64,000 bases of DNA, from the IMG/VR virus record IMGVR_UViG_3300045988_144682; one strand, given 5' to 3'. Shown one piece after another: positions 156 through 48,193 of the stretch. Below the pieces are notes generated by a model. The model made no database searches, had not been told where the DNA came from, and was given only the letters and a program-made list of their open reading frames with translations. The position numbers and the translations under genes were made by a program. This DNA is from a virus. Numbering within the stretch: the stretch's first letter is position 1; each line of letters opens with the position of its first letter.

Positions 156-428
156 CTATAATAAAGAACTCATTTCGATAATGCAGCGTTTCATTTTTTC
201 CATTTCTGTCATTTCCCGAATGATAAATCTTGTATGACCGTCTTCTTGCCAAATATTTGTACATATCATATCGGCATAGTCAACGCCACCTATATTAACT
301 GTTGTTAAATTGTTATCAGACAAAAGTTCCATATTAACCACATCGTCTGTTATATAATTGTTTCCATTCATTGTGGCGTGAATCTCTGTTTTGTCTGCGA
401 GGATAATATTGTAAATAGTATTTTCCAT
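156..428 (-). CDS. hypothetical 90-aa protein downstream of DGR RT
   Basis: ORF with GGAGG 8 nt upstream of ATG 428. Overlaps the RT 3' end by about 95 nt. No recognisable domain. Confidence 0.55.
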   Translation of the reverse strand: MENTIYNIILADKTEIHATMNGNNYITDDVVNMELLSDNNLTTVNIGGVDYADMICTNIWQEDGHTRFIIREMTEMEKMKRCIIEMSSLL

Positions 429-1656
429 CTATAAAACCTCCAAATAAATCAAAATAAAGAAGATTCAAATTATCTCGTTGTATTTTACTCATTAAATGAG
501 CATGACCGCCCATCCATGCACGAAACATATTCTCAACTTCTTCTTGTGTACGTTCTCCACGTATAACTTTTAGACTAAGTTTCTTTAATTTTCGCCTCAT
601 ATCAACAATTCTTCTTGGATTTATTTTTCTAATAACCCTACCAGTATCGGTAAGAGAATAGGTGATTTGCAGAAATTTATAGTAATCTGATAATTTTACG
701 ATTCTTGTCTTTTTGCGATTGAGAGTCATACCTAATTCTTTTGCTTTTTCTGCAATTTCTATTTCAAGCTGTACTAAAAATTCTCTGTCACGGTGGATAA
801 CATAACTGTCATCCATATACCTTCCATAAAATTTCTGACTTTTTACAATTTTTACAAAATTATCTACAGGTGTTGGATAAAAGATACCTATAATTTGAGA
901 ACATTGATCCCCAATATTTACAGATTTGCGCATATACTTTTCGCCAGTATGAGCAGATTTAGGAATTTTCAATCTATATTCAGTTGAATTAAATGGAACA
1001 TTCATACAATTTGAAAATTCTTCATCATTCATATACGAAACATCAATTTTAAAATTATCAAAAATCTGTTGTAACAACCAAAGAGAAAATTCATCATTCA
1101 CATGCTTGGCAATTTCTCGATAAGCTATATCATGTGGAATATTATCGTAAAACTTACTATAATCCATCAATAAAATATATCCGTCATTACCATACATTCG
1201 ATAATATTTATGTAAATGTTCTTCAAAGCGTTTTCGACTAAAATCAATGCCTTTGCCCTTAAGAGAAGCACCATTATCATAGATAAGATAATCTATGAGA
1301 GATGGAGATAAAACGTTATCACAAAGAGAATGACGAATTACTCTGTCAGACATTTGTAGTCCTGTAATTGGTCGAACTTTACCACGTTCATTGATAATAA
1401 ATTCAGAAGATGGTTTTGAATGATATTCTCTATTCTTTAACAAATCCTTGGTTGATACAATATTAGGCAAAAAGTCAATTCCATACTTTTGTACTTGTGG
1501 TTTCCAATCAGAATCTTTCTTGGCTGCGAGAAATGCAGAATATAATGAGTTCAAATCATATACAATATTATCTACATTGTCTTGAGCATTTTCTTTATTC
1601 ATTTCATAATCTTTTCTTTCATAATCATATTTATTTATATTTGACGTATATAGCAA
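334..1656 (-). CDS. DGR reverse transcriptase
   Basis: 440-aa ORF with RT motifs, including the DGR-type IGDQCSQ and YMDD. Lies immediately downstream of the template repeat. Start uncertain (TTG 1656 or ATG 1602). Confidence 0.9.
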   Translation of the reverse strand: MLYTSNINKYDYERKDYEMNKENAQDNVDNIVYDLNSLYSAFLAAKKDSDWKPQVQKYGIDFLPNIVSTKDLLKNREYHSKPSSEFIINERGKVRPITGLQMSDRVIRHSLCDNVLSPSLIDYLIYDNGASLKGKGIDFSRKRFEEHLHKYYRMYGNDGYILLMDYSKFYDNIPHDIAYREIAKHVNDEFSLWLLQQIFDNFKIDVSYMNDEEFSNCMNVPFNSTEYRLKIPKSAHTGEKYMRKSVNIGDQCSQIIGIFYPTPVDNFVKIVKSQKFYGRYMDDSYVIHRDREFLVQLEIEIAEKAKELGMTLNRKKTRIVKLSDYYKFLQITYSLTDTGRVIRKINPRRIVDMRRKLKKLSLKVIRGERTQEEVENMFRAWMGGHAHLMSKIQRDNLNLLYFDLFGGFIDGKYYLQYYPRRQNRDSRHNEWKQLYNRRCG

Positions 1657-12420: not shown

Positions 12421-13220
12421 TATGCAATCACCACCTTCGCTATTGGGTTATATGAAATTGAGTATGTACAAGGTAAGTTAAATGTCAGTTTATTAACTGT
12501 TTTGCCATACTCATTGTTAATTCGTATAAACTTATAATTAAAATCATCACCCAACTCATGAGAATTATTACTTGACATAATTTGCAAAAGATGAGTGAAA
12601 GTCAAAGTTTCACCAGATGAGCAACCACGCACAACAGTTGTCCGTTTATCGTACTCATTAGTGATTTTTAAATCACCAGCAGATTTAAGCGTTATTGTAA
12701 TATCAGGATACAGATAACCTTCTTCATCGCTTGTGTCATTGATACTAATTGATCCGTCCTTGTCAACAGATCCACTAAAATTCAATTTATCCTTATAGCC
12801 GAACGGGGCAGTGGCAGTAAATGTTAGATGAAAGCCTATACAGCCAAAAGCATAATGAATTTCTTCTATATTAAATGTACCATTCCAAAAGTAACCATCA
12901 TATTCATCACTACATAACCGCAGCTCAGATGCATTTGGAGATCCAAGCCATCTTTTTATAACTGCACATTCAGTTGGAGAAATTAAATTTTTATTGTTTT
13001 TATCGCCTATTTTACATATTGAGAATTCCATAACTAATTGGCTGTTATATGTATAATATAAAATAGGAAAATATTTACTTCCAAACATTGAAATAGAAGT
13101 AAAATCTCTTTGAGAGTCAGTAGTCGCAGTATTTGCAGACGAAGCATCATCAAAATCGCATACCATATATCCATGACTACTTAATTTTTCATCACGAAAA
13201 ATAAAATCATAACCATACAT
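12420..13220 (-). CDS. distal tail protein (Dit) candidate
   Basis: 266-aa ORF with GGAGG RBS, positioned between the tape measure and Tal. Confidence 0.6.
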   Translation of the reverse strand: MYGYDFIFRDEKLSSHGYMVCDFDDASSANTATTDSQRDFTSISMFGSKYFPILYYTYNSQLVMEFSICKIGDKNNKNLISPTECAVIKRWLGSPNASELRLCSDEYDGYFWNGTFNIEEIHYAFGCIGFHLTFTATAPFGYKDKLNFSGSVDKDGSISINDTSDEEGYLYPDITITLKSAGDLKITNEYDKRTTVVRGCSSGETLTFTHLLQIMSSNNSHELGDDFNYKFIRINNEYGKTVNKLTFNLPCTYSISYNPIAKVVIA

Positions 13221-37715: not shown

Positions 37716-37766
37716 TTGTCAAACCTTCTTTCTTTATGCAATTTTTCCACTATAGAATAGTGGGAG

Positions 37767-37850
37767 TAGGAGATGTGGGACTCGAACCCACACGCCAATA
37801 ACGGCACTGCGCCCTTAACGCAGCGTGTCTACCAATTCCACCAATCTCCC
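37767..37850 (-). tRNA. tRNA-Leu, anticodon reads AAG in a standard 7-nt loop
   Basis: Cloverleaf with a Leu-type D arm (GGAATTGGTAGAC), long variable arm and T loop GGTTCGAGTCC. Anticodon stem CTGCG/CGCAG, loop TTAAGGG. G1.U72. Confidence 0.8.
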
Positions 37851-37893
37851 ATATAAAAAAGCATGGGAAGTTTCCAACCCATGCTATAAAAGA

Positions 37894-39336
37894 TTACAAC
37901 GAAATTTTCATTCCTTTATTTGAACATAAGACTCTGAAAGTCTTATTATTTTTAGAAATTTCTTTTCTTAAACTTTCAGATAATGACTTTTTGCTTTCTT
38001 CGCTACCATGAACCAAGATAAGTTTGTTTGTATTCAAAGAACTACCGAACTTAATCAAGTCATCTCTATTGGCATGGCTACTGAAAGTAGAGAGCGATAT
38101 ACAGTCAGTCCTATTTACAACCGGCACTTTATTGATTGTCAGTTTCTTGTAGTCTTTATAGTTCTTGATTCGATAGGAGAGATATGAAGGATTATCGCCA
38201 ACATATCCAGAGAATACAACCATACTGTTTGGATCGGGCAAGAACTTTTGTAAATAGTTTACAATCCTACCATTTGTACAAAATCCAGAGGATGACAATA
38301 CAATCTTCGGAGTAGTATCATTCTGGCACATTTTGGATTCTTCTTTCTCAGATAAAAAAACAACATTTTTCCAATTTCGCACTTTCATCCATAATTCCAG
38401 GTCTTCGCCTTTAAGTATGGTTTCATATAAGTCAGAAATTTCACAGCTAAGTTTTGAATCAACAACTACATCAGCTTTAAATGAATCGTCACAACCAAAA
38501 ATCAAATAGAGAACAGTAAGTAATTCTTGTGTCCGACTAAAACTGAAACATGGCAGCAGAAGAGTACCTTTTCGCTCCAATACAGTATTGACAGCTACTC
38601 TCAAATGCTCAACGTCAAAATCCCTGGTTTTCTTATTTACTTTTTCTCTACTTCCATATGTACTTTCCATAATGGCAACATCATTGAACATTGCCGGAAT
38701 TTCAGTATTTCTTACATAATGATTTTTCGTATTCAAAGCACCAAGATCAGATGTATACAGAATTTTCTTTGTCTTCAATCCATCTGACAAAATCAATTGT
38801 AATTGAGCAGCACCTACACAATGAGAGTTTGGAATCCACTGAAAACTAACTACATCGTCAAGTTGGAAAACAACACCATATTCACTATAAGGTTTAATTA
38901 ACTGCAATGTTTTAGAAACATCATCTTCACTATAAATAGGAGAGTAATTTCTGCTGTAGCGTTTTGAAAGAATTCTTGCTTCATCAGCTACAATAAAAGC
39001 ACAATTAAAAAGCAGCGATTTCATAACCGCTGCAGTGTTAGGTGTAGTTATAATTTTTCCATTGAATCCCTGGGCAACCAATCGAGGAATTAAGCCACAA
39101 TGATCCACATGTGGATGTGCCACAAACAAGTAATCAATCTCACTTGGTTTGAATCCAAATTTCTTTGAATTGATTTTATAGGAATCAAGATAACTATTGC
39201 TTTTGGATTGATATAATCCGCATTCCAGTAATATCTTTTTGCCTCCAAATTGTACAAGGTACTGAGAGCCGGTGACATCTGTTGATGATTCACCTAAGAA
39301 ATAAATTCCATCATTATTTTGTTTGTGTTTAGACAT
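37894..39336 (-). CDS. beta-CASP metallo-beta-lactamase-fold nuclease (RNase J/CPSF-like)
   Basis: 480 aa with an AAAGGTGG RBS. HPHVDH (HxHxDH) motif and a beta-CASP-sized C-terminal half. Embedded between tRNA genes. Confidence 0.7.
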   Translation of the reverse strand: MSKHKQNNDGIYFLGESSTDVTGSQYLVQFGGKKILLECGLYQSKSNSYLDSYKINSKKFGFKPSEIDYLFVAHPHVDHCGLIPRLVAQGFNGKIITTPNTAAVMKSLLFNCAFIVADEARILSKRYSRNYSPIYSEDDVSKTLQLIKPYSEYGVVFQLDDVVSFQWIPNSHCVGAAQLQLILSDGLKTKKILYTSDLGALNTKNHYVRNTEIPAMFNDVAIMESTYGSREKVNKKTRDFDVEHLRVAVNTVLERKGTLLLPCFSFSRTQELLTVLYLIFGCDDSFKADVVVDSKLSCEISDLYETILKGEDLELWMKVRNWKNVVFLSEKEESKMCQNDTTPKIVLSSSGFCTNGRIVNYLQKFLPDPNSMVVFSGYVGDNPSYLSYRIKNYKDYKKLTINKVPVVNRTDCISLSTFSSHANRDDLIKFGSSLNTNKLILVHGSEESKKSLSESLRKEISKNNKTFRVLCSNKGMKISL

Positions 39337-39368
39337 ATAATTCCACCTTTATTATTATTTGTTTATAG

Positions 39369-39448
39369 TAGTAGATACGAGACTCGAACTCGTAAGGTTT
39401 CCCGGCAGTGTTTGAGACTGCTGCGTTTGCCTGTTTCGCCAATCTACC
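39369..39448 (-). tRNA. tRNA-Leu(CAA)
   Basis: Anticodon arm GCAGT-CTCAAAC-ACTGC, long variable arm, T arm ACGAG-TTCGAGT-CTCGT. Confidence 0.8.
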
Positions 39449-39535
39449 ACAATATATAAACAAAGCTACTTGATAAGTGTCAGATAGCTTCGGAATAATT
39501 TATGATTTACACTATTTGATAGTGGTAATTTTTAA

Positions 39536-39618
39536 TGTGGATGATGGGACTTGAACCCATACACCATTAAGATAGCAGAGCTTAAATCTGCTGCGTCTGC
39601 CAATTACGCCACATCCAC
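39536..39618 (-). tRNA. tRNA-Leu(TAA)
   Basis: Perfect acceptor GTGGATG/CATCCAC. Anticodon arm GCAGA-TTTAAGC-TCTGC. Long variable arm. Confidence 0.9.
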
Positions 39619-39696
39619 ATGATATATTGTAGAATTATAGTCTAATTGAAAATGTAATGTTCCATATAATATAATCATTGCATCACACTCTCAATA

Positions 39697-39769
39697 AGCT
39701 GGTAAAGGGACTCGAACCCTTAACCTACTGATTACAGGTCAGTTGCGCTACCAATTGCGCCATACCAGC
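39697..39769 (-). tRNA. tRNA-Thr(TGT), with C at position 33
   Basis: Acceptor GCTGGTA/TACCAGC. Anticodon arm ACTGA-CCTGTAA-TCAGT. T loop TTCGAGT. Confidence 0.85.
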
Positions 39770-40014
39770 AGATGTGTTCAATGAGGTTTACCTAGTGCGC
39801 CCTCTGACAGACAATGAACTGTGCCATCCCCACGTGTATAAATAGTTATAGATTATCCTGGTGACTATTTCGGATACATACATGGTTTCAACCTTAACAC
39901 CAGTTTCGATAAAACATCTACCCATCTATTATTGATATCTGATAATAAATAGACATAGCGTAATATCTAGCGCACTAAAAACCTTCATCCATCGCTTTAA
40001 ACTTTGTGCGTTTC

Positions 40015-40039
40015 AATTGTATTTTGCTTTGTTACAATT
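40015..40039 (-). ncRNA. small hairpin with ACAAAGCAAAA loop (mini version of the array stem-loop motif)
   Basis: Minus strand reads AATTGTA-ACAAAGCAAAA-TACAATT (7-bp stem). Confidence 0.35.
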
Positions 40040-40091
40040 CAAGTTTATTGTTATTTATCTTCAAAGCTAAGACTTTCACATCCACGGTAAA

Positions 40092-40163
40092 CTGGGGTAG
40101 CTGGATTCGAACCAGCGAATACAGGAGTCAAAGTCCTGTGCCTTACCGCTTGGCGATACCCCA
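40092..40163 (-). tRNA. tRNA-Gln(TTG)
   Basis: TGGGGTATCGCCAAGCGGTAAGGCA body. Anticodon arm CAGGA-CTTTGAC-TCCTG. Confidence 0.9.
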
Positions 40164-40170
40164 TTATAAA

Positions 40171-40242
40171 CTGCCCCGGTGGGGATCGAACCCACAACAT
40201 ACAGATTAACAGTCTGCCGTTCTACCATTGGACTACAGGGCA
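40171..40242 (-). tRNA. tRNA-Asn(GTT)
   Basis: Anticodon arm GCAGA-CTGTTAA-TCTGT. T arm GTGGG-TTCGATC-CCCAC. Confidence 0.85.
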
Positions 40243-40309
40243 TTAAAAACTGATAATGACTATGCCAAAATCAGATTTCCTATCTACACATGGTAGATGG
40301 ATAAAAGAC

Positions 40310-40432
40310 AAGTCGCTAAGATCGAAGAAAATCTGATGATAGACAATACACTGAAGATTGTCTGGTCAGATTTTTATGTAAATATTTGCATTACTTACCC
40401 AATTTTTCGTTATAATTTGCTGTATGCGACTT
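40310..40432 (-). ncRNA. array stem-loop module A
   Basis: 7-bp closing stem AAGTCGC / GCGACTT. Loop starts ATACAGCAAATT. Confidence 0.55.
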
Positions 40433-40436
40433 TCAC

Positions 40437-40550
40437 TAGGCTCTAAATGTAAACTATTTCATTCATCAAAAATACTTAGTGTTTGAGGGGAAAATATAAA
40501 ATATTCTTTAATATGTTTTGTTAGTTGTTCATATTTGCTGTGTGAGCCTA
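40437..40550 (-). ncRNA. array stem-loop module B
   Basis: 7-bp closing stem TAGGCTC / GAGCCTA. Loop starts (A)CACAGCAAATA. Confidence 0.55.
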
Positions 40551-40553
40551 TAC

Positions 40554-40706
40554 TAGACACTTTGACAGAGGATATCATTATCTTCTGTTGATTTACAATA
40601 GGATATTAAGGGGAGGAATAATATCCTATGCTTTTTCATATAATTTTCATTTGCTTGTAAAAATAATTTGAAAGAATTAAATCAAAAATTTTGCTGTATG
40701 TGTCTA
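40554..40706 (-). ncRNA. array stem-loop module C
   Basis: 7-bp closing stem TAGACAC / GTGTCTA. Loop starts ATACAGCAAAAT. Begins 2 nt after the tRNA-Ile 3' end. Confidence 0.55.
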
Positions 40707-40708
40707 AA

Positions 40709-40779
40709 TTGGAATAATAAGAATCGAACTTATGTGACCTCCGTATCAGAGAGGCATTCTACCATTGAATTATATTCCA
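40709..40779 (-). tRNA. tRNA-Ile(GAT)
   Basis: Acceptor TGGAATA/TATTCCA. Anticodon loop CTGATAC. T arm ATAAG-TTCGATT-CTTAT. Confidence 0.85.
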
Positions 40780-40791
40780 GTATAATATGAG

Positions 40792-40883
40792 CGGTAAGGG
40801 TGGGCTACGACCCCACGGTACATGACTTAACATGTACGCTAGATTAGCAATCTAGTGCATTAAACCAACTCTGCCACCTTACC
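40792..40883 (-). tRNA. tRNA-Ser(GCT)
   Basis: Acceptor GGTAAGG/CCTTACC. Anticodon arm CTAGA-TTGCTAA-TCTAG. Long variable arm. Unusual T loop GTCGTAG. Confidence 0.8.
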
Positions 40884-40887
40884 ATGA

Positions 40888-40958
40888 TGGGTGTAGTGAG
40901 GCTTGAACTCACGACTTACCGGTTAAAAGCCGGTTACTCTACCAACTGAGTTACACCC
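40888..40958 (-). tRNA. tRNA-Lys(TTT)
   Basis: Anticodon arm ACCGG-CTTTTAA-CCGGT. T arm GTGAG-TTCAAGC-CTCAC. The acceptor-to-D connector looks 1 nt short. Confidence 0.75.
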
Positions 40959-41023
40959 AGATTAAATAATGTACCTATAATATTACATGCCAACCAATCG
41001 CCAAATTGATTATAACTGTAAAA

Positions 41024-41116
41024 CGAAGAGGGTGGGATTTGAACCCACGAACCGCCATCACTGACGGTTGCCAGTTTTCAAGACTGGTGCAATAATCCAG
41101 ACTCTGCCACCTCTCC
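41024..41116 (-). tRNA. tRNA-Ser(TGA)
   Basis: Anticodon arm CCAGT-CTTGAAA-ACTGG. Long variable arm. T arm GTGGG-TTCAAAT-CCCAC. Confidence 0.85.
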
Positions 41117-41125
41117 AAAAATAAA

Positions 41126-41197
41126 CACCCATACTTGGAATCGAACCAAGATCATAGCTTTAGAAGAACCATGTTCTCTCCATTGAACTATACGGGC
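41126..41197 (-). tRNA. tRNA-Arg(TCT)
   Basis: Anticodon loop CTTCTAA. T arm CTTGG-TTCGATT-CCAAG. G1.U72. Confidence 0.8.
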
Positions 41198-41201
41198 AAA
41201 A

Positions 41202-41273
41202 CAGACATAATAGGAATCGAACCTATATCGCACGATTCGTAGTCGTGAACTCTATCCATTAAGCTATATGTCC
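41202..41273 (-). tRNA. tRNA-Arg(ACG)
   Basis: Anticodon arm CACGA-CTACGAA-TCGTG. T arm ATAGG-TTCGATT-CCTAT. Confidence 0.85.
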
Positions 41274-41343
41274 ATGATTATGTTTTCTTCACCATTTCAT
41301 GTATACCTCATATGCCTTTTTATAAGGGCTTTATTTGATTGAG

Positions 41344-41416
41344 TGGGAAGTGGTGGAGTCGAACCACCTACACTTAGGGCTTCAACCTAATGCTCTACCA
41401 GTTGAGCTAACTTCCC
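41344..41416 (-). tRNA. tRNA-Phe(GAA)
   Basis: Acceptor GGGAAGT/ACTTCCC. Anticodon arm TTAGG-TTGAAGC-CCTAA. Confidence 0.9.
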
Positions 41417-41532
41417 AAATGTAGTTTACCCTTGCTATCGTGGAAGGAAAGATCTTCATTACCGCTTGTCGTAAACGCCAATTTCTACCGTTTGAAGTGA
41501 GTCGTTAGAATTGGTAAAGCAACTATCTCACA

Positions 41533-41616
41533 TGGGCGTGGAGGGAGTCGAACCCACTAGATCCCGAAGGCAGCAGATTTACAGTCTGCCCGATCTCCGT
41601 AGTCGTTTACACACCC
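41533..41616 (-). tRNA. tRNA-Tyr(GTA)
   Basis: Anticodon arm GCAGA-CTGTAAA-TCTGC. Long variable arm. One mismatch in the T stem. Confidence 0.8.
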
Positions 41617-41642
41617 AAATATAAAATTGCATAAATGCAAAA

Positions 41643-41715
41643 AGCATCTGACCGGGAATGATCCGGCATCGCCTGGGTGGAAGCCAGGTATGTTATCCAA
41701 TTACACCACAAATGC
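41643..41715 (-). tRNA. tRNA-Gly(TCC)
   Basis: Anticodon arm CCTGG-CTTCCAC-CCAGG. Unusual T loop ATCATTC. Confidence 0.8.
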
Positions 41716-41719
41716 AGAA

Positions 41720-41791
41720 CAGACGCAGTAGGACTCGAACCCACATCTTACAGTTTTGGAGACTGTTGTTTTACCATTAAACTACACATCT
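41720..41791 (-). tRNA. tRNA-Trp(CCA)
   Basis: Anticodon arm ACAGT-CTCCAAA-ACTGT. Acceptor stem has three G.U pairs. Confidence 0.8.
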
Positions 41792-41917
41792 ACAGTTAGT
41801 TTTTACTCGGCTTACACTATAACCCAACAAGCATATCACGTTAATATAACTTGCTACATTTATTTCTCGTTGTAAATGCTAAAAAACGTTTCTGGTTGAC
41901 TGCAGATTCACCAGTAA

Positions 41918-41990
41918 TAGGGTGTATGGGAATCGAACCCATCTCGTAGCCGTGAAAGGGCTATAACTTAAACCGCTTGTCCAACACCCC
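41918..41990 (-). tRNA. tRNA-Glu(TTC)
   Basis: Anticodon arm TAGCC-CTTTCAC-GGCTA. T arm ATGGG-TTCGATT-CCCAT. Confidence 0.85.
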
Positions 41991-41994
41991 ATAA

Positions 41995-42066
41995 CGGTCT
42001 AGGTGGGAATCGAACCCACGACTTCGGAGAGACAATCCGATGTTATTACCACTTAACTACAAGACC
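41995..42066 (-). tRNA. tRNA-Asp(GTC)
   Basis: Anticodon arm TCGGA-TTGTCTC-TCCGA. T arm GTGGG-TTCGATT-CCCAC. Confidence 0.85.
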
Positions 42067-42072
42067 AAAATC

Positions 42073-42136
42073 AAGGCACAATCCACTTAAAATATTCATC
42101 CATTTGAAAGTATAAGTAATTTGCTGTACGTGCCTT
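42073..42136 (-). ncRNA. array stem-loop module D
   Basis: 7-bp closing stem AAGGCAC / GTGCCTT. Loop starts GTACAGCAAATT. Ends 6 nt before the tRNA-Asp 5' end. Confidence 0.55.
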
Positions 42137-42143
42137 ACGAAAC

Positions 42144-42204
42144 TAAGCTCATTTCGGTAGTATTTTTAACAGAAATATCCCAAATAAATTGCTGTATGAG
42201 CTTA
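42144..42204 (-). ncRNA. array stem-loop module E
   Basis: 8-bp closing stem TAAGCTCA / TGAGCTTA. Loop starts TACAGCAATTT. Begins 3 nt after the tRNA-Cys 3' end. Confidence 0.55.
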
Positions 42205-42207
42205 AAG

Positions 42208-42281
42208 AGAGTACAGTTGGATTTGAACCAACGAATACTGATTTTGCAGACCAGTGCATTGCCAGACTTTGCTATGTACTC
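42208..42281 (-). tRNA. tRNA-Cys(GCA)
   Basis: Acceptor GAGTACA/TGTACTC. Anticodon loop CTGCAAA. T arm GTTGG-TTCAAAT-CCAAC. Confidence 0.85.
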
Positions 42282-42368
42282 TTACATAAACGATAGAACT
42301 ATTACGCAATGAATAGCCCCACCGCTTATTAACAAAAACATATAGGACAAAACATAAAACAAGATAAA

Positions 42369-42441
42369 TTGCGGATGGGGGATTTGAACCCTCGACCTCT
42401 TGCTTATGAGGCAAGCGAGCTGACCACTGCTCTAATCCGCA
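42369..42441 (-). tRNA. tRNA-Met(CAT), elongator-like (could be Ile2 if lysidinylated)
   Basis: Acceptor TGCGGAT/ATCCGCA. Anticodon arm CTTGC-CTCATAA-GCAAG. No initiator GGG/CCC stem. Confidence 0.85.
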
Positions 42442-44393: not shown

Positions 44394-45377
44394 CTAAATT
44401 GATTCCGTGACATTATTTATATTGGCTTTATTACGCATTCGTTGTTTCCGTTTTCGTTCAGCAGCCAATTTTTTTGATTGAATTTTTTGACATTGTTCAC
44501 ATCTACAAGACTTACGACTTTTTGCGCCAACTTTAAATTTTATGCCACAATCAATACAAATAAGTTCTTGTATATTTTTTTTATGATAACCACGATGCTT
44601 ATAACAATATGCAGAATCTTTTGTTTTACTCTGCTTGAATAATCTGCCACAAAATTTACATGTACCAATTTTTCCACCATTCAATCTATCATAATGCAAA
44701 TTCAAATGGTCATAATCGGTAATGTAATCCAGAACATCATCTGGATTCTCTGCAGTGTCAACGAATTTTACAAACCACGATCTGTATTTATTATTCGTGA
44801 TATCAAACACACCCTCACGATACAAACAACCAAGAGAAAAATTCTTCTCTTCCGCATTTTTAAATCTACATCCACCGGCTTTATAAATATCCCGTTTAGG
44901 CATATGACAATAAAAAAGTGTATCTTCTGTGATAGTGGCAGAATTCTCAATGGAAATACTATGCAGCCTGTGATATTTTGCATCAACAAGCATTACAAAT
45001 AACATTCGGCGGTAATTGTCATTCTCAATTGTGCAAATTTTCTCCCACTCCTTTTTGGTGATAGGAGTAGGGAGTGGCAATTTTAACTTATACAGTCGTG
45101 AGCTGGCAACTGCATTGTCGATATCCTGAAATTTCACAATGTAATTGAAATCAATGTAATACCTATTGCAAAATGCTTTTAGTTCTTTTTCTATTTGGCT
45201 GTCTAATTGTTCCATATCTTCAACAGTGACATTATTGTAGTCCTTCCCGGATTCTGTAATCGCCTTGTATCTCAAATATTTTGCATACAAGAGCAAATCG
45301 GATCTTTTGTATTCGTCAACAGCAGTAGTGGAAGCCTCCATTTCCTGCGCAACGGACAATTCATCGAAATAAATCAT
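44394..45377 (-). CDS. hypothetical protein with C-terminal multi-Cys zinc-finger cluster and basic tail
   Basis: 327 aa with GGAGG RBS. Contains CKFCG..CYKH..CIDCG..CRCEQC followed by KKLAAERKRKQRMRNK. Overlaps the RNAP gene stop. Confidence 0.6.
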   Translation of the reverse strand: MIYFDELSVAQEMEASTTAVDEYKRSDLLLYAKYLRYKAITESGKDYNNVTVEDMEQLDSQIEKELKAFCNRYYIDFNYIVKFQDIDNAVASSRLYKLKLPLPTPITKKEWEKICTIENDNYRRMLFVMLVDAKYHRLHSISIENSATITEDTLFYCHMPKRDIYKAGGCRFKNAEEKNFSLGCLYREGVFDITNNKYRSWFVKFVDTAENPDDVLDYITDYDHLNLHYDRLNGGKIGTCKFCGRLFKQSKTKDSAYCYKHRGYHKKNIQELICIDCGIKFKVGAKSRKSCRCEQCQKIQSKKLAAERKRKQRMRNKANINNVTESI

Positions 45378-48193
45378 ACATTTACCTCCACAACGCTATA
45401 TTTTTTACCGAGATATGATATTGTACCGTTTTTTTCATCCAAAACTGGCATTTTTGGTGTGACAGTAGAGTTCTTTTTCAAGTTTTCTACAATTTGGTTG
45501 CCAAAAATACTCCAACAGAAGTCTTTTGTACGGCTAGGATGCAGCTCATAGCATACATAGATTGCCAAATCACAAGCATATTGCACATCACCGATAAACT
45601 TATCTGTAATTCTGTCTCTGATGGCAAGCGGATATTTGATAAATTCCGATGTCTGAGAGACACTGTGAGTATAATCACTCTTGCGTTTTACTCTTAAACT
45701 GTCTTTTTGTGATTTGTAGTCCAGGTATTGAGCGTTCATGTACTCAATATCTTCTTCAGCAAAGTTCAAATTAGTGCCAGAATACATTGATTTAACCAAA
45801 TGTTCCGGCGTTTTCATATGTCTTTTTCTTTTTATTTCACTTAAATGCTTCTCCATATAGTGACAAATCTTATTCATCCTGCCATTATAATCAATCAGTG
45901 GCGAATAAGGGTAAAATTTATCAATTAGATAATCCCTCTCAGCGTCAGTAAGATCTTCCGGCGCAGAATCCAGAATGTCATAAATTGATTTTTGGAACAA
46001 CATCATGCACACATCGTTCTCTTTATCCAGGTATTTAAGATACTTAGAGTTCTCAGAGCTGTAAAGATAACGGAAGAAGTAAGGTTTCTTGTCTGCAACT
46101 ATTGAATTGTAAAACTCAAAGTCAATATCTTCCACATCGTCTGGCTTTTTAGAAATCTTCCTTGTCCAATGTTTAGGCATTGGCTCAATTTTTATTCCCT
46201 TCGCCTTATCAATCGAATCTCCCTGAGACTTTCTGATAAGTTTGAGGCGTTCCAAAATCTCATCTTGCTCACGCTTGAATGTAATATCACCCTCATAGCG
46301 TGCTAAAATCTCATAGAATGCAGTTGAAATATTCGTAATACGACCAATTGTACTATCGAATGATTGAATGTCTGCTTTGTACAGTTCATCTTCTGAAATG
46401 TACTCTTTATCTACAGTAGATTTTGAGTATGTAATTGGAAGATTGTCGTAACGGCAGCGTAAGAACACTGGATTATCAGTAGTGGCTACAATATCTCCGT
46501 CAAAATCGGAGTCTGCATGAATTATGCAGTCACAACCCCAAACATTATAAACAATGCCACTTGTCAGATATTTGAACCATTTTTCTGTTAATTCATTGTT
46601 CTTCAAGTTAAGTTTATTCACTTCTGAACGCCATGTAAGCGGTGATCTCATAGCAACAACATCAGTTTTTCCACGTTTGTTCCAAAAGTAAGAGTAATGC
46701 TCAAATTCTTTTAATGCACCGGTAACTGTATGACCAAATGCGTGCTGCATAAATGCATACATATCTGGAATCATTACACTAAAATTACCGTCCAGAATAA
46801 GTTTTCCTAAATAAGTTTCTCTGATTTTTTTATTTATGCTCATTATGATATTTGATTTTATATATTCTTCGCTAATCATTTCTGGATTAACAATCAGTGC
46901 TTTCGCAACATTGTCACTTGTCAAGTCAAAAATGTTGTTAAAATCAATATCATCTTTATCACATAGTTTTCCAAGCAAAAATAATATCGCCTGGTTTGGA
47001 TCGTCAATCGAAATACCATTCAGCCACTTTACAGTAGGATCACATAACTCAGCTACGTCATCATCATTTGTGAGATCAATAGCCTGACAGAATTGATAAT
47101 TGGAACGAAAACAATTATCGTCTGTTTTAGGAGTAACTTTTGTAACTCCCCACAAGAAACCATTTTCTTCACATAATCTATCATATTCTTGAATTGAATC
47201 ATAAGCATTCCATAATTTAAACTGTGACTTTGTAAGGATCATATCTGTTTTAGTTATATCTACCAGATTCCCATACAGATCTTTCATTTCTGTAATCCCA
47301 CATTCTGCAGCATACTGTTTGAAATCAACAACGAACACCATACCTTTTACATATGCGCATCTTACACAGAATGCAGATGGGATATAATCTAATTCCAGTT
47401 CATCAGCTACACGCTTTGCGAATTCCACAGAAACAGCACCACATCCATCGAATAAATTAAACGGCAGAGTTTTTATCTCTTCAGAAACTCGCTCATTATT
47501 TGCAATAGCGTCTTTTTCTTCTTTTGGAATCTTTGAAATCCAATCAACTTTCTTTTCCATTTCGATTTCGCAGTCATCAATAAGATAAACATTCGGGTGT
47601 GGAATTGTGTAGGTTGCAGAAGATGAGAGAGCAAAGTAAGCATTGTATTTGTTTTTCGTTATTTTGACGCTTTTTGCCCCACAACGTAATCTTTTCTTTA
47701 ACTCTGCATCAAAATCTTCACGAATTAAGATTACAGTATTTACTCTCGCTTGTCCGGCACTACACATGAGGCGAACATACTTAAATCCATTTATATATAA
47801 TCCATCACGAATGATTTTTCTGTAATGAGAAATATCATCAATGACAACAGAAACATATTCTGGAATGAATAGCATTTCATCAATCTTACCGTTGATTATT
47901 GAGATTTGCCGTTTCGCATAATCATTAAATTGCTTTTTTAAATTTTTCTTTTGGGCGTATAGGTCACTTAATATAGCCGGATCATACCGCATTATATTAG
48001 GGTTACGCTCATACCGTATATTTCTAATAGTTCTCAATGCCTGGTTATCTGCCAGAGCAATCAATTCACCATTTTGCCGAATATCACGAATATGATATCC
48101 CGAATTACCAAGAATCCTCTTTAAGTGATATCCAAACTTATCTAATCTAGTGGAAGAGAATTTCATGATATAAAATTGTTGTAATTTTTTCAT
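45374..48193 (-). CDS. YonO-like single-subunit two-barrel RNA polymerase (RdRP/QDE-1-like fold) candidate
   Basis: 939 aa with GGAGG RBS. Contains HADSDFDGDIV (DxDGD metal-binding loop, as in beta-prime NADFDGD and RdRP DbDGD), with an upstream MRSPLTWRSE segment. Size matches SPbeta YonO. Confidence 0.6.
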   Translation of the reverse strand: MKKLQQFYIMKFSSTRLDKFGYHLKRILGNSGYHIRDIRQNGELIALADNQALRTIRNIRYERNPNIMRYDPAILSDLYAQKKNLKKQFNDYAKRQISIINGKIDEMLFIPEYVSVVIDDISHYRKIIRDGLYINGFKYVRLMCSAGQARVNTVILIREDFDAELKKRLRCGAKSVKITKNKYNAYFALSSSATYTIPHPNVYLIDDCEIEMEKKVDWISKIPKEEKDAIANNERVSEEIKTLPFNLFDGCGAVSVEFAKRVADELELDYIPSAFCVRCAYVKGMVFVVDFKQYAAECGITEMKDLYGNLVDITKTDMILTKSQFKLWNAYDSIQEYDRLCEENGFLWGVTKVTPKTDDNCFRSNYQFCQAIDLTNDDDVAELCDPTVKWLNGISIDDPNQAILFLLGKLCDKDDIDFNNIFDLTSDNVAKALIVNPEMISEEYIKSNIIMSINKKIRETYLGKLILDGNFSVMIPDMYAFMQHAFGHTVTGALKEFEHYSYFWNKRGKTDVVAMRSPLTWRSEVNKLNLKNNELTEKWFKYLTSGIVYNVWGCDCIIHADSDFDGDIVATTDNPVFLRCRYDNLPITYSKSTVDKEYISEDELYKADIQSFDSTIGRITNISTAFYEILARYEGDITFKREQDEILERLKLIRKSQGDSIDKAKGIKIEPMPKHWTRKISKKPDDVEDIDFEFYNSIVADKKPYFFRYLYSSENSKYLKYLDKENDVCMMLFQKSIYDILDSAPEDLTDAERDYLIDKFYPYSPLIDYNGRMNKICHYMEKHLSEIKRKRHMKTPEHLVKSMYSGTNLNFAEEDIEYMNAQYLDYKSQKDSLRVKRKSDYTHSVSQTSEFIKYPLAIRDRITDKFIGDVQYACDLAIYVCYELHPSRTKDFCWSIFGNQIVENLKKNSTVTPKMPVLDEKNGTISYLGKKYSVVEVNV

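What the first reader, a model, noticed from the sequence alone, without database searches (positions are those of the whole stretch)
40310..42204. Five tiled stem-loop RNA modules with covarying closing stems and a shared ACAGCAAA loop motif
Two tRNA-free gaps are filled end to end by units spaced 3-7 nt apart, like the tRNAs themselves. Each unit has a 7-8-bp terminal stem whose sequence differs completely between units yet stays complementary: AAGTCGC/GCGACTT, TAGGCTC/GAGCCTA, TAGACAC/GTGTCTA, AAGGCAC/GTGCCTT and TAAGCTCA/TGAGCTTA. Each stem is followed immediately by a conserved (A/G)(T/C)ACAGCAA(A/T)(A/T)T. Unit lengths are 61-153 nt. Two units start 2-3 nt after a tRNA 3' end, and one ends 6 nt before a tRNA 5' end. 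A 7-bp hairpin at 40015-40039 has the related loop ACAAAGCAAAA. The acceptor-stem-like closure and tiling recall the stable RNAs C and D of the T4 tRNA cluster, but I recognise no known RNA family. They could be processed small RNAs, protein or nuclease recognition modules, or ribozyme-like elements.
Basis: seen in the sequence. Interest (0 to 1): 0.75.

Follow-up and report, generated by a model that had tools for sequence, protein, structure and literature searches.

The report
Y-RNA-like modules in phage tRNA array
Five small structured RNA genes tucked between a gut phage's tRNA genes belong to a large RNA family that no paper I found and no Rfam model defines; the family sits next to a phage version of the Ro60 RNA-binding ring protein, so the five units are most likely the phage's own 'Y RNAs'.

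Summary
On the minus strand, five units (61-153 nt) sit among the tRNAs. Each is closed by a perfect 7-bp stem of different sequence, followed by two bases and ACAGCAA. The same architecture (stem, NN-ACAGCAA on the 5' strand, variable interior, 3' arm followed by G-U) recurs in hundreds of phage and giant-virus contigs, and in cultured phages such as Felix O1-like phages, Listeria A511 and mycobacteriophages. It is tightly linked, on the same strand, to a DUF2828/DUF7788 protein whose predicted fold matches full-length Ro60. In 80 loci picked by the protein alone there were 107 units on the gene strand and 3 on the other. A covariance model built only from those foreign units finds four of the five window units. 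The gene is not in the window, but near-identical genomes carry it about 63 kb from the array, flanked by more units. Some family members carry a YrlA-like tRNA-mimic domain. The best reading is a new variant of Y RNA, partner of a Ro60-like phage protein and released from the tRNA precursor. The handle also closely resembles Dictyostelium Class I RNAs. Binding, processing and function are untested.

The parts
42144..42204 (-). Unit E (61 nt). 5' arm 42204-42198 TAAGCTC, AT, motif ACAGCAA 42195-42189, 3' arm 42150-42144, then G at 42143. It starts 2 nt after the 3' end of tRNA-Cys.
   Evidence: Family model R1 scores 37.8 bits, E 3.9e-6. In the fold the motif is unpaired and a second helix abuts the 3' arm. 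Orthologues are present in L035, L022 and L095.
42073..42136 (-). Unit D (64 nt). 5' arm 42136-42130 AAGGCAC, GT, motif 42127-42121, 3' arm 42079-42073, then G. tRNA-Asp starts 5-6 nt downstream.
   Evidence: R1 scores 38.9 bits, E 2.2e-6. The internal hairpin loop AAAUGGAU is shared with L088/L209.
40554..40706 (-). Unit C (153 nt). 5' arm 40706-40700 TAGACAC, AT, motif 40697-40691, 3' arm 40560-40554, then G. It starts 2 nt after the 3' end of tRNA-Ile.
   Evidence: The fold z-score is -4.7. The syntenic orthologue in L087 has compensatory stem changes; the L085 copy pairs only 6 of 7. R1 misses this unit, probably because the interior is too long.
40437..40550 (-). Unit B (114 nt). 5' arm 40550-40544 TAGGCTC, AC, motif 40541-40535, 3' arm 40443-40437, then G.
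   Evidence: R1 scores 17.1 bits, E 0.21. Orthologues in L085 and L087 have compensatory stem changes.
40310..40432 (-). Unit A (123 nt). 5' arm 40432-40426 AAGTCGC, AT, motif 40423-40417, 3' arm 40316-40310, then G. tRNA-Asn starts 67 nt downstream.
   Evidence: R1 scores 28.3 bits, E 5.8e-4. Orthologues are present in L087, L095, L102 and L118.
40015..40039 (-). Possible minimal or degenerate sixth unit: AATTGTA-AC-AAAGCAA-AA-TACAATT, followed by G.
   Evidence: Read directly from the sequence. R1 does not report it at E <= 10, so membership is uncertain.
37766..42441 (-). The host tRNA array: 19 tRNAs by ARAGORN plus tRNA-Lys(ttt) at 40888-40958, found only by Rfam. The units are embedded in it. 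A beta-CASP nuclease gene (37894-39336) lies inside the array.

Best explanation
The five units are genes for Y-RNA-like small non-coding RNAs, the RNA partners of a phage-encoded Ro60-like ring protein of the DUF2828/DUF7788 family. The proposed mechanism has five steps.

1. The units are transcribed with the tRNAs as one precursor. This is inferred from strand and tiling.
2. Each unit folds on its own through its 7-bp closing stem and is cut out by the tRNA-processing machinery, with RNase P-like cleavage at the 5' end of the stem and RNase Z-like cleavage after the conserved G that follows the 3' arm. This is inferred from the tRNA-like 2-7-nt spacing and the conserved G-U.
3. The closing stem together with the single-stranded NN-ACAGCAA on its 5' strand is the docking site for the Ro60-like protein. 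It plays the role that the terminal stem plus the GNCGAA/CGAA 5'-strand motif plays in canonical Y RNAs. This is inferred from strict genetic linkage and architectural analogy.
4. The variable interior is the effector or gating module. In some relatives it is a YrlA-type tRNA mimic.
5. By analogy with published work, the resulting RNP re-directs or blocks host RNA decay and quality control, or counters host defence.

Shown here: the structure, family membership, linkage to the protein, and the protein's predicted fold. Not shown: expression, processing sites, binding and function.
For: Structure: there are five of five perfect closures and orthologous compensatory changes. Across loci fetched by motif alone, closure is specific to the 2-nt offset (20% against 1.5-3.7% at control offsets).

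Family: the same handle occurs in many unrelated viral contigs, often as tandem arrays.

Linkage: loci fetched only by the RNA pattern repeatedly carry a DUF2828+DUF7788 gene beside the array. Conversely, 80 loci fetched only by the protein carry 107 strict units on the gene strand against 3 on the other strand. Forty-six of the 80 loci have at least one unit, 49 units lie within 1 kb upstream, and 13 loci have units but no tRNA.

Protein: the AlphaFold model (pLDDT 86, pTM 0.86) matches full-length Ro60 (1yvr, E 2.5e-8, TM 0.57-0.60) and the Thermus phage TROVE protein 9kop. The protein is annotated 'Ro-like RNA binding protein' in mycobacteriophages and occurs in 711 cultured phage records.

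Independent model: covariance model R1, built from 48 units beside DUF2828 genes in other phages, hits window units D, E and A, and B weakly. It finds nothing else credible in the 64 kb. It also hits units beside the gene in Staphylococcus, Campylobacter and Bacillus phages that were not used to build it, and in Listeria A511, a Felix O1-like phage and a mycobacteriophage.

Same genome: ten near-identical contigs of the window's lineage, plus two with a split or cut copy, encode the protein (L475 15696-17258, HMM E 6e-182, Pfam DUF2828+DUF7788). Five further R1 hits flank the gene on its strand.

Y-RNA topology: relatives carry T-arm, acceptor hairpin and D-arm interiors and give sub-threshold YrlA hits.

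Literature: very abundant RNAs lie less than 2 kb upstream of the Rsr-like gene of the P100-like phage CKA15 (PMC12282133). The Ro60-like gp130 of Bas63 counters the Ppl defence system, and the authors guessed that Y RNAs lie among the tRNAs (PMC11482910). The Ro60 of phage phiLo binds adjacent Yrl RNAs through a 5'-strand CGAA motif (PMC12135203).
Against: There are no expression, end-mapping or binding data for these units. The protein gene is not in the window; it is inferred from relatives that are 98-99% identical, and it lies about 63 kb away on the other strand. The motif ACAGCAA is not the canonical Y-RNA motif GNCGAAN0-1G. The five window units have no tRNA-like domain. Thirty-four of the 80 DUF2828 loci show no strict unit within 3 kb, and Vibrio phage K567 shows none. 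Relatives at 75-77% identity of the beta-CASP marker protein lack the units in their arrays. Unit C is not scored by the model.
Confidence: 0.75

Rival explanations
1. The units are passive punctuation of the tRNA precursor. They would be self-folding spacers that insulate neighbouring tRNAs and guide RNase P/Z, with no function once excised.
For: They are tiled at tRNA-like spacing and closed like acceptor stems. Their interiors are poorly conserved even between orthologues.
Against: A 7-nt motif and the stem termini are conserved across phages of Proteobacteria, Firmicutes, Actinobacteria and Bacteroidota and in giant-virus bins. Units occur next to the DUF2828 gene where no tRNA is within 3 kb (13 loci). 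The tRNA arrays of 72 relatives lack them almost entirely.
Confidence: 0.08
2. The units are trans-acting regulatory or sponge RNAs of the Dictyostelium Class I type. They would work through an RRM-type or other host RNA-binding protein, or by base pairing of the variable loops, independently of the Ro-like protein.
For: The handle matches the Class I consensus. Class I RNA DdR-21 binds the RRM protein CIBP/Rnp1A directly. C-rich apical loops (UUCCUCCCC, UUUUCCCCUCA) are kept in units C and B of the window and L087, with different stems.
Against: The genetic linkage is to DUF2828, not to an RRM gene. Interiors turn over fast. No target complementarity was tested.
Confidence: 0.1
3. The units are decayed or circularly permuted tRNA genes, that is, remnants or precursors of real tRNAs.
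For: Some relatives hold full tRNA-like sets of arms in normal or permuted order inside the closing stem. The units occupy tRNA slots in the array.
Against: The five window units contain no T-arm or anticodon arm, and at most a D-loop-like UGGRU hairpin loop in D and E. ARAGORN and Rfam find no tRNA in them. The handle is conserved where no tRNA part exists, in units of 44-65 nt.
Confidence: 0.03
4. The units are DNA-level elements (miniature transposons, recombination or promoter sites) or self-cleaving ribozymes.
For: They have flanking inverted repeats and occur in tandem copies.
Against: The arms differ between copies yet stay complementary, which argues for selection on RNA pairing and against shared terminal repeats. 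The strand bias relative to the gene is strict, 107 against 3. No ribozyme family matches even at E <= 10. There is no conserved 3'-side core.
Confidence: 0.03

Closest known systems
Bacterial and phage Y RNAs bound by Ro60/Rsr (YrlA, Rfam RF02553; Yrl1/Yrl2 of Thermus phage phiLo)
   Same: The 5' and 3' ends pair in a terminal stem. A short conserved motif on the 5' strand next to that stem is the protein-binding site. The rest of the RNA is a variable module, which can be a tRNA mimic (T-arm, acceptor hairpin, D-arm). There are several different copies per genome. They are encoded within a few kb of, and on the same strand as, a ring-shaped HEAT-repeat + vWA protein. They are often found next to tRNA genes.
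   Different: The motif is (N)CAGCAA rather than GNCGAAN0-1G/CGAA. The protein is Pfam DUF2828+DUF7788, not TROVE, with only about 11-14% identity to Ro60 in the structural alignment. Rfam YrlA scores stay at about half the gathering threshold. Many members are far shorter (44-65 nt). In this phage most copies sit inside the tRNA array, about 63 kb from the protein gene.
Dictyostelium Class I RNAs (Rfam RF01414; Kjellin et al. 2021, PMC7919456)
   Same: Both have a short terminal stem (6-7 bp) whose sequence covaries. ACAGCAA lies directly 3' of the 5' arm and is predicted to be unpaired. The stem ends are conserved, (A)AG...CU followed by G-U. The remainder is highly variable, there are many different copies, and they are often clustered. 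The typical size is about 60 nt. Short viral units score 20-28 bits on the Rfam model.
   Different: The linker between stem and ACAGCAA is 2 nt in the viral units and 3-4 nt in Class I (CCUU). The AG/CU register is shifted by one pair. The viral units have no DUSE promoter and are polycistronic. The window units gave no RF01414 hit at E <= 10. Class I RNAs were reported as unique to Dictyostelia, with an RRM protein as the known direct binder. Homology as opposed to convergence is unproven.
T4 stable RNAs C and D (species 1 and 2) in the T4 tRNA cluster
   Same: They are non-tRNA stable RNAs embedded in a phage tRNA cluster and released from the same precursor. This rests on established knowledge and the annotation.
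   Different: They have no closing stem followed by ACAGCAA, and the family model gives no hit on rnaC or rnaD. No DUF2828 gene was annotated in the 6 kb of T4 examined.
Unnamed abundant RNAs upstream of the Rsr-like gene of Listeria phage CKA15, and putative Y RNAs near Bas63 gp130
   Same: These are probably the same family. A511, a relative of CKA15, has three units directly upstream of gp57 (DUF2828). A Felix O1-like relative of Bas63 has four units in the tRNA array just downstream of the gene.
   Different: Those papers propose Y RNAs only as a possibility and define no motif, structure or family. I did not examine the CKA15 or Bas63 sequences themselves.

Membership tests
Y RNA / YrlA (Ro60-associated RNAs) | Terminal stem formed by the 5' and 3' ends | tested here: met
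   Perfect 7-bp stems in all five units. Covariation is seen in orthologues and across 48 family members (these were selected for closure, so that count only shows sequence diversity).
Y RNA / YrlA (Ro60-associated RNAs) | Conserved 5'-strand motif GNCGAAN0-1G (CGAA) that Ro60 contacts | tested here: not met
   The conserved motif is NN-ACAGCAA in the same position, and no GNCGAA is present.
Y RNA / YrlA (Ro60-associated RNAs) | Encoded near, and on the same strand as, a Ro60 (TROVE + vWA) gene | tested here: inconclusive
   For the family the feature is met, but with a Ro60-like DUF2828 protein rather than TROVE. For the window it is not met locally: the gene is about 63 kb away in near-identical genomes, where further units flank it.
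Y RNA / YrlA (Ro60-associated RNAs) | tRNA-like domain (T-arm, acceptor hairpin, D-arm) in at least one Y RNA per genome | tested here: not met
   None of the five window units has one. Other family members do, for example L147, L187 and L206 7385-7510.
Y RNA / YrlA (Ro60-associated RNAs) | Rfam RF02553 gathering score (69 bits) | tested here: not met
   There is no hit on the window units. The best relatives score 36-37.5 bits.
Y RNA / YrlA (Ro60-associated RNAs) | Physical binding to the Ro60-type protein | not testable with these tools
   This needs RIP, EMSA or a structure.
Dictyostelium Class I RNA (RF01414) | Short 5'/3' stem conserved in structure but not in sequence | tested here: met
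   compared with the description.
Dictyostelium Class I RNA (RF01414) | 11-nt motif CCUUACAGCAA adjacent to the 5' arm and unpaired | tested here: inconclusive
   The ACAGCAA core and its position are met, and the motif is unpaired in the folds. The linker is 2 nt instead of CCUU, so the full 11-mer is not met.
Dictyostelium Class I RNA (RF01414) | Conserved termini AAG ... CUGU | tested here: met
   The window units start (A/T)AG or TAA. Their 3' arms end in TT or TA (CTT/CTA in A-D, TTA in E) and are followed by GT or GA, compared.
Dictyostelium Class I RNA (RF01414) | Length 42-65 nt | tested here: inconclusive
   Units D (64 nt) and E (61 nt) fit. Units A, B and C (114-153 nt) do not.
Dictyostelium Class I RNA (RF01414) | Rfam gathering score 41.5 bits, and a DUSE promoter about 60 nt upstream | tested here: not met
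   The window units give no hit at E <= 10. Short units elsewhere score 20-28 bits. The units are tiled 2-7 nt apart, which leaves no room for individual promoters.
tRNA | Cloverleaf detectable by ARAGORN or Rfam RF00005 | tested here: not met
T4 rnaC/rnaD-type stable RNAs | Sequence and structure similarity to T4 rnaC or rnaD | tested here: not met
   Model R1 gives no hit on L299 1909-2172, and the closing stem plus ACAGCAA layout is absent from the sequences.

The most novel reading that the evidence does not exclude
The viral ACAGCAA RNAs and the Dictyostelium Class I RNAs are one ancient family. On this reading, Class I RNAs, orphan since 2004 and thought to be unique to social amoebae, are the Y-RNA equivalents of a DUF2828 Ro60 paralogue. 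This RNP would then span phages, giant viruses and eukaryotes. A concrete lead is that the Class I pull-down recovered DDB_G0281243, a protein of unknown function conserved in all Dictyostelia. Its fold could not be checked here. Giant-virus bins (L193, L100, L174) hold arrays of 44-55-nt units. In L193 and L100 these lie next to a DUF2828 gene; L174 was not seen to carry one. These bins could be the bridge.
Probability: 0.25. Interest if true: 0.92.

Novelty: new variant of a known kind. Interest (0 to 1): 0.8.

Why it matters
Ro60/Y-RNA particles are a conserved but poorly understood RNA quality-control system. This finding defines the missing RNA half of a second, much larger phage branch of that system. 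The DUF2828 'Ro-like' protein has 711 cultured phage records and at least 7,900 protein clusters.

The definition is simple and searchable: a 7-bp stem, NN-ACAGCAA, and G-U after the 3' arm. It reaches tractable model phages (Felix O1-like phages, A511/P100, staphylococcal, campylobacter and mycobacterial phages).

It gives a concrete candidate for two published loose ends: the very abundant unexplained RNAs of Listeria phage CKA15, and the RNA partner of Bas63 gp130, which counters the Ppl defence system.

It shows that 'empty' gaps in phage tRNA arrays can hold a distinct class of genes.

It also offers a testable hypothesis for the function and origin of Dictyostelium Class I RNAs.

Tried and rejected
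- **Rfam.** Searches at gathering thresholds and at E <= 10 over the region found nothing on the units.
- **Ribozymes.** I checked hammerhead, HDV-like and hatchet layouts by eye. There is no conserved 3'-side core and no GAAA or CUGANGA.
- **Bacteroides -7/-33 promoter on the plus strand.** The spacing does not fit and it is the wrong strand.
- **CRISPR-repeat mimic or type III antitoxin repeats.** The arms differ between copies.
- **Beta-CASP nuclease as specific partner.** It is conserved in relatives that lack the units.
- **Search for the partner in the window.** A Pfam screen of 50 ORFs found no TROVE, DUF2828 or RtcB. An HMM search of the window and of 10-kb extensions on both sides was negative. 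The gene was found only after walking four steps along the lineage's IMG/VR contigs.
- **Megablast against cultured phages.** The region has no close relative.
- **Relatives at 75-77% identity (L082, L083).** They lack the units but hold other closed non-tRNA elements.
- **T4 rnaC/rnaD.** No match.
- **Dictyostelium link through proteins.** Homologues of the L193 protein are all unnamed metagenomic sequences. The Avesson 2011 paper is not held. A literature search for DDB_G0281243 gave nothing further.
- **Covariation counts on alignment A5.** These are circular for pairing, because members were chosen for closure. They are used only to show stem diversity. The non-circular tests are.
Full report
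**What is in the window**

The tRNA genes of this window lie on the minus strand (37766-42441). ARAGORN finds 19, and Rfam adds tRNA-Lys(ttt) at 40888-40958. Read on that strand, two tRNA-free gaps are filled by five units:
- E, 42204-42144
- D, 42136-42073
- C, 40706-40554
- B, 40550-40437
- A, 40432-40310

Each unit begins with a 7-nt arm (TAAGCTC, AAGGCAC, TAGACAC, TAGGCTC, AAGTCGC). Two bases follow, then ACAGCAA(A/T)(A/T)T. Each unit ends with the exact complement of its arm, followed by G.

The window holds 24 copies of ACAGCAA. The five in the array are closed in this way and none of the other 19 is. The units lie 2-7 nt from each other and from tRNA-Cys, tRNA-Asp and tRNA-Ile, which is the spacing between the tRNAs themselves. 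In the minimum-free-energy folds the closing stem forms and the motif is unpaired in all five. The z-scores range from -1.7 to -4.7. The only correction is that the motif is the 5' strand leaving the stem, not a loop.

**The genome and its relatives**

The genome is a gut phage of about 160 kb. It has SPbeta-type structural genes, a YonO/RdRP-like RNA polymerase (45374-48193) and a beta-CASP nuclease inside the tRNA array. It has no close cultured relative.

Near-identical metagenomic contigs keep all five units. Two relatives with 86-87% beta-CASP identity (L085, L087) keep the C-B-A triple between tRNA-Ile and tRNA-Asn, with compensatory stem changes. Unit C changes from TAGACAC/GTGTCTA to TAGGCAC/GTGCCTA. 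Unit B changes from TAGGCTC to TAGACTC and TAGACCC, each with the matching 3' arm. This covariation is independent of how the units were found. More distant relatives mostly lack the units. Only L035 and L022 keep one, of type E.

**A widespread family**

A scan of IMG/VR for two motifs about 110-140 nt apart returned many unrelated contigs. In those loci, 20% of non-redundant ACAGCAA occurrences are closed by a perfect 7-bp stem at exactly the 2-nt offset. At control offsets the figure is 1.5-3.7%.

The units are 44-190 nt long and often form tandem arrays with 4-10-nt spacers. The consensus is (A/U)A(G)N(C)NC-NN-(A)CAGCAA(A) ... GNGN(C)U(U/A), followed by G in 75% of cases.

The interiors vary widely. 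Some units have almost none. Others have one hairpin, often with a UGGRU loop like a D-loop. Some hold a whole tRNA-like set of arms in normal order. Others hold the permuted order T-arm, acceptor hairpin, D-arm, which is the topology of YrlA Y RNAs. Rfam gives sub-threshold YrlA hits on such units (36-37.5 bits against a threshold of 69).

**Linkage to a Ro60-like protein**

Two giant-virus bins fetched by the RNA pattern carry a DUF2828+DUF7788 protein beside the array. tblastn and a custom HMM then found the same protein beside the arrays in about 20 independent RNA-fetched loci.

The reverse test is not circular. Eighty loci were fetched only by the protein, with 3 kb on each side. They contain 107 strict units on the gene strand and 3 on the opposite strand. 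Forty-six of the 80 loci have at least one unit. Forty-nine units lie within the 1 kb upstream of the gene. Thirteen loci have units but no tRNA. By contrast, the tRNA arrays of 72 relatives without a nearby DUF2828 gene almost never have units. The link is therefore to the protein and not merely to tRNA arrays.

An AlphaFold model of the protein (pLDDT 86, pTM 0.86) matches full-length Ro60 over both the helical ring and the vWA domain (1yvr, E 2.5e-8, TM 0.57-0.60). It also matches the TROVE protein of Thermus phage phiLo. A sequence profile reaches only the vWA part weakly. The family is huge, with at least 7,948 protein clusters and 711 cultured phage records. It is annotated 'Ro-like RNA binding protein' in mycobacteriophages.

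**Cultured phages**

Units sit beside the gene, on its strand, in:
- Felixounavirus UAB_Phi87: four units in the tRNA array downstream, one of them YrlA-like
- Listeria phage A511: three units directly upstream of gp57
- Mycobacterium phage Gardann: two units around tRNA-Asn
- Staphylococcus phage S-CoN_Ph12
- Campylobacter phage F352
- Bacillus phage 2S-4

Prevotella phage Lak-A1 gives only a weak hit and Vibrio phage K567 gives none.

**The family model applied to the window**

A covariance model (R1) was built from 48 short units. Forty-two came from the protein-anchored metagenomic loci and six from the Felix O1-like, A511 and Gardann loci; none came from the window's lineage. In the window it scores D at 38.9 bits (E 2e-6), E at 37.8 bits, A at 28.3 bits and B at 17.1 bits (E 0.21). 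It finds nothing else credible in the 64 kb. It misses C, probably because of its 153-nt length.

**Where the protein is in this phage**

The protein is not in the window, nor within 10 kb beyond either end. Walking along the lineage's IMG/VR contigs found it. Contig 3300045988_139784 is 164 kb long. It has the same five units and a beta-CASP 98% identical to the window's. It encodes a 521-aa DUF2828+DUF7788 protein at L475 15696-17258, about 63 kb from the array. That position would be roughly 41 kb beyond the right end of the window.

The same gene is present intact in ten contigs of the lineage, and split or cut in two more. It is flanked on its own strand by five more R1 hits (41.8, 30.9, 22.9, 19.3 and 19.2 bits) and by a tRNA-Met. 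The phage therefore most likely has two clusters of these RNAs, one around the protein gene and one inside the main tRNA array.

**Mechanism**

In canonical Ro60 particles the Y RNA's terminal stem and a 5'-strand motif (GNCGAAN0-1G, or CGAA) dock on the ring. A variable module tethers or gates effectors such as PNPase. Some Y RNAs mimic tRNA and are cut by RNase P (PMC4201824, PMC12135203). The ACAGCAA family has the same layout, with a different motif and a divergent ring protein.

I therefore propose that the units are co-transcribed with the tRNAs. They would be excised at the stem boundaries by the tRNA-processing enzymes; the conserved G-U after the 3' arm looks like a discriminator base followed by a U-rich trailer. 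They would then be bound through stem plus ACAGCAA by the DUF2828 protein. All of these steps are inferred.

Two published results fit. First, very abundant unexplained RNAs lie less than 2 kb upstream of the Rsr-like gene of the P100-like phage CKA15 (PMC12282133). Second, Bas63 gp130, described as structurally similar to Ro60 and located next to the tRNA genes, counters the Ppl defence system (PMC11482910). Neither paper defines the RNA.

**Comparison with known families**

Membership of Y RNA/YrlA in the strict sense fails on the motif, on the Rfam score and, for the window units, on the tRNA-like domain. The working analogy is nevertheless strong.

The handle also matches the consensus of Dictyostelium Class I RNAs (Rfam RF01414: GaUcuC-CUU-ACAGCAA ... 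GagAuC-UG; start AAG, end CUGU). Short viral units score 20-28 bits against a threshold of 41.5. Class I RNAs are reported as unique to Dictyostelia and have no known mechanism. Whether the resemblance is homology or convergence could not be settled here. The Class I pull-down did recover an uncharacterised protein, DDB_G0281243, whose fold should be checked.

**Verdict**

This is a real feature, correctly spotted. It is best explained as a new variant of the Y-RNA/Ro60 system, defined here by a stem-plus-ACAGCAA handle and a DUF2828 Ro60-like partner.
- Confidence that the window units belong to this RNA family: about 0.9.
- Confidence that the family is the RNA partner of the DUF2828 protein: about 0.8.
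- Confidence in the whole mechanism as stated: about 0.75.

Noticed in passing
window 40888-40958 (-): Rfam finds a tRNA-Lys(ttt) at 58.8 bits that ARAGORN misses, so the gap 40884-41022 is not tRNA-free.
   Followed up: partly
window 37894-39336 (-): A beta-CASP/RMMBL metallo-beta-lactamase nuclease (RNase J/CPSF-like, with a weak Apyc1 hit) is encoded inside the tRNA array. More than 1000 homologues scored at E <= 1e-10; the listed ones are 64-99% identical, and the neighbourhoods examined held tRNAs. It may be a phage tRNA-processing enzyme. It is not specific to the ACAGCAA units.
   Followed up: partly
window 334-1656 (-) and L289 10964-12232: A reverse transcriptase (RVT_1) gene lies next to the tail-fibre genes (2292-aa and 638-aa ORFs). 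This may be a diversity-generating retroelement. Template and variable repeats were not searched for.
   Followed up: no
L289-L291 17719-20630 (about 7-10 kb beyond window position 1): Tn7-like genes (TniQ, TniB, TnsB) lie just beyond the lysis module in contigs that carry the window's genes. This could be a transposon within or next to the phage genome.
   Followed up: no
window, one of the 40 ORFs screened: One phage ORF matches the ribosomal protein L7/L12 C-terminal domain (E 2.4e-17). An integrase and a DnaJ-domain protein are also present. The output did not show which ORF carries the L7/L12 domain.
   Followed up: no
L207 3483-4034 (Listeria phage A511): There is a near-threshold ROOL RNA match (87.5 bits; gathering score 99.1) about 650 nt upstream of the three ACAGCAA units and the Ro-like gp57. 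ROOL, the Y-like RNAs, tRNAs and the Ro-like gene therefore cluster together.
   Followed up: no
L082 12649-12780 and L083 about 12525-12650: Relatives that lack ACAGCAA units carry other non-tRNA elements in their tRNA arrays, closed by long-range stems (AAGGTTGGC...GTCAACCTT). There are apparent compensatory changes between the two loci. This is a different, uncharacterised element.
   Followed up: no
L097 1599-1708, L195 3114-3222, L107 2618-2695, L108 11692-11766: Some units contain a complete permuted tRNA-like set of arms including an anticodon arm (anticodons UCA and UUU). ARAGORN calls tRNA-Pyl and tRNA-SeC-like suppressor tRNAs in neighbouring arrays, which hints at recoding phages.
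   Followed up: no
window units B (about 40474-40487) and C (about 40604-40612); L087 129-381: C-rich apical loops (UUUUCCCCUCAAAC and UUCCUCCCC) are conserved between the window and L087, although the surrounding stems differ. They resemble anti-Shine-Dalgarno or UCCC-type sRNA seed loops.
   Followed up: partly
L330 20906-21262; L423 18898-20544; L443 18803-20188: In more distant relatives of the window's phage, the DUF2828 gene sits 8-10 kb from genes that lie 20-30 kb from it in the window's lineage. The gene's position has therefore shifted within this phage group.
   Followed up: no
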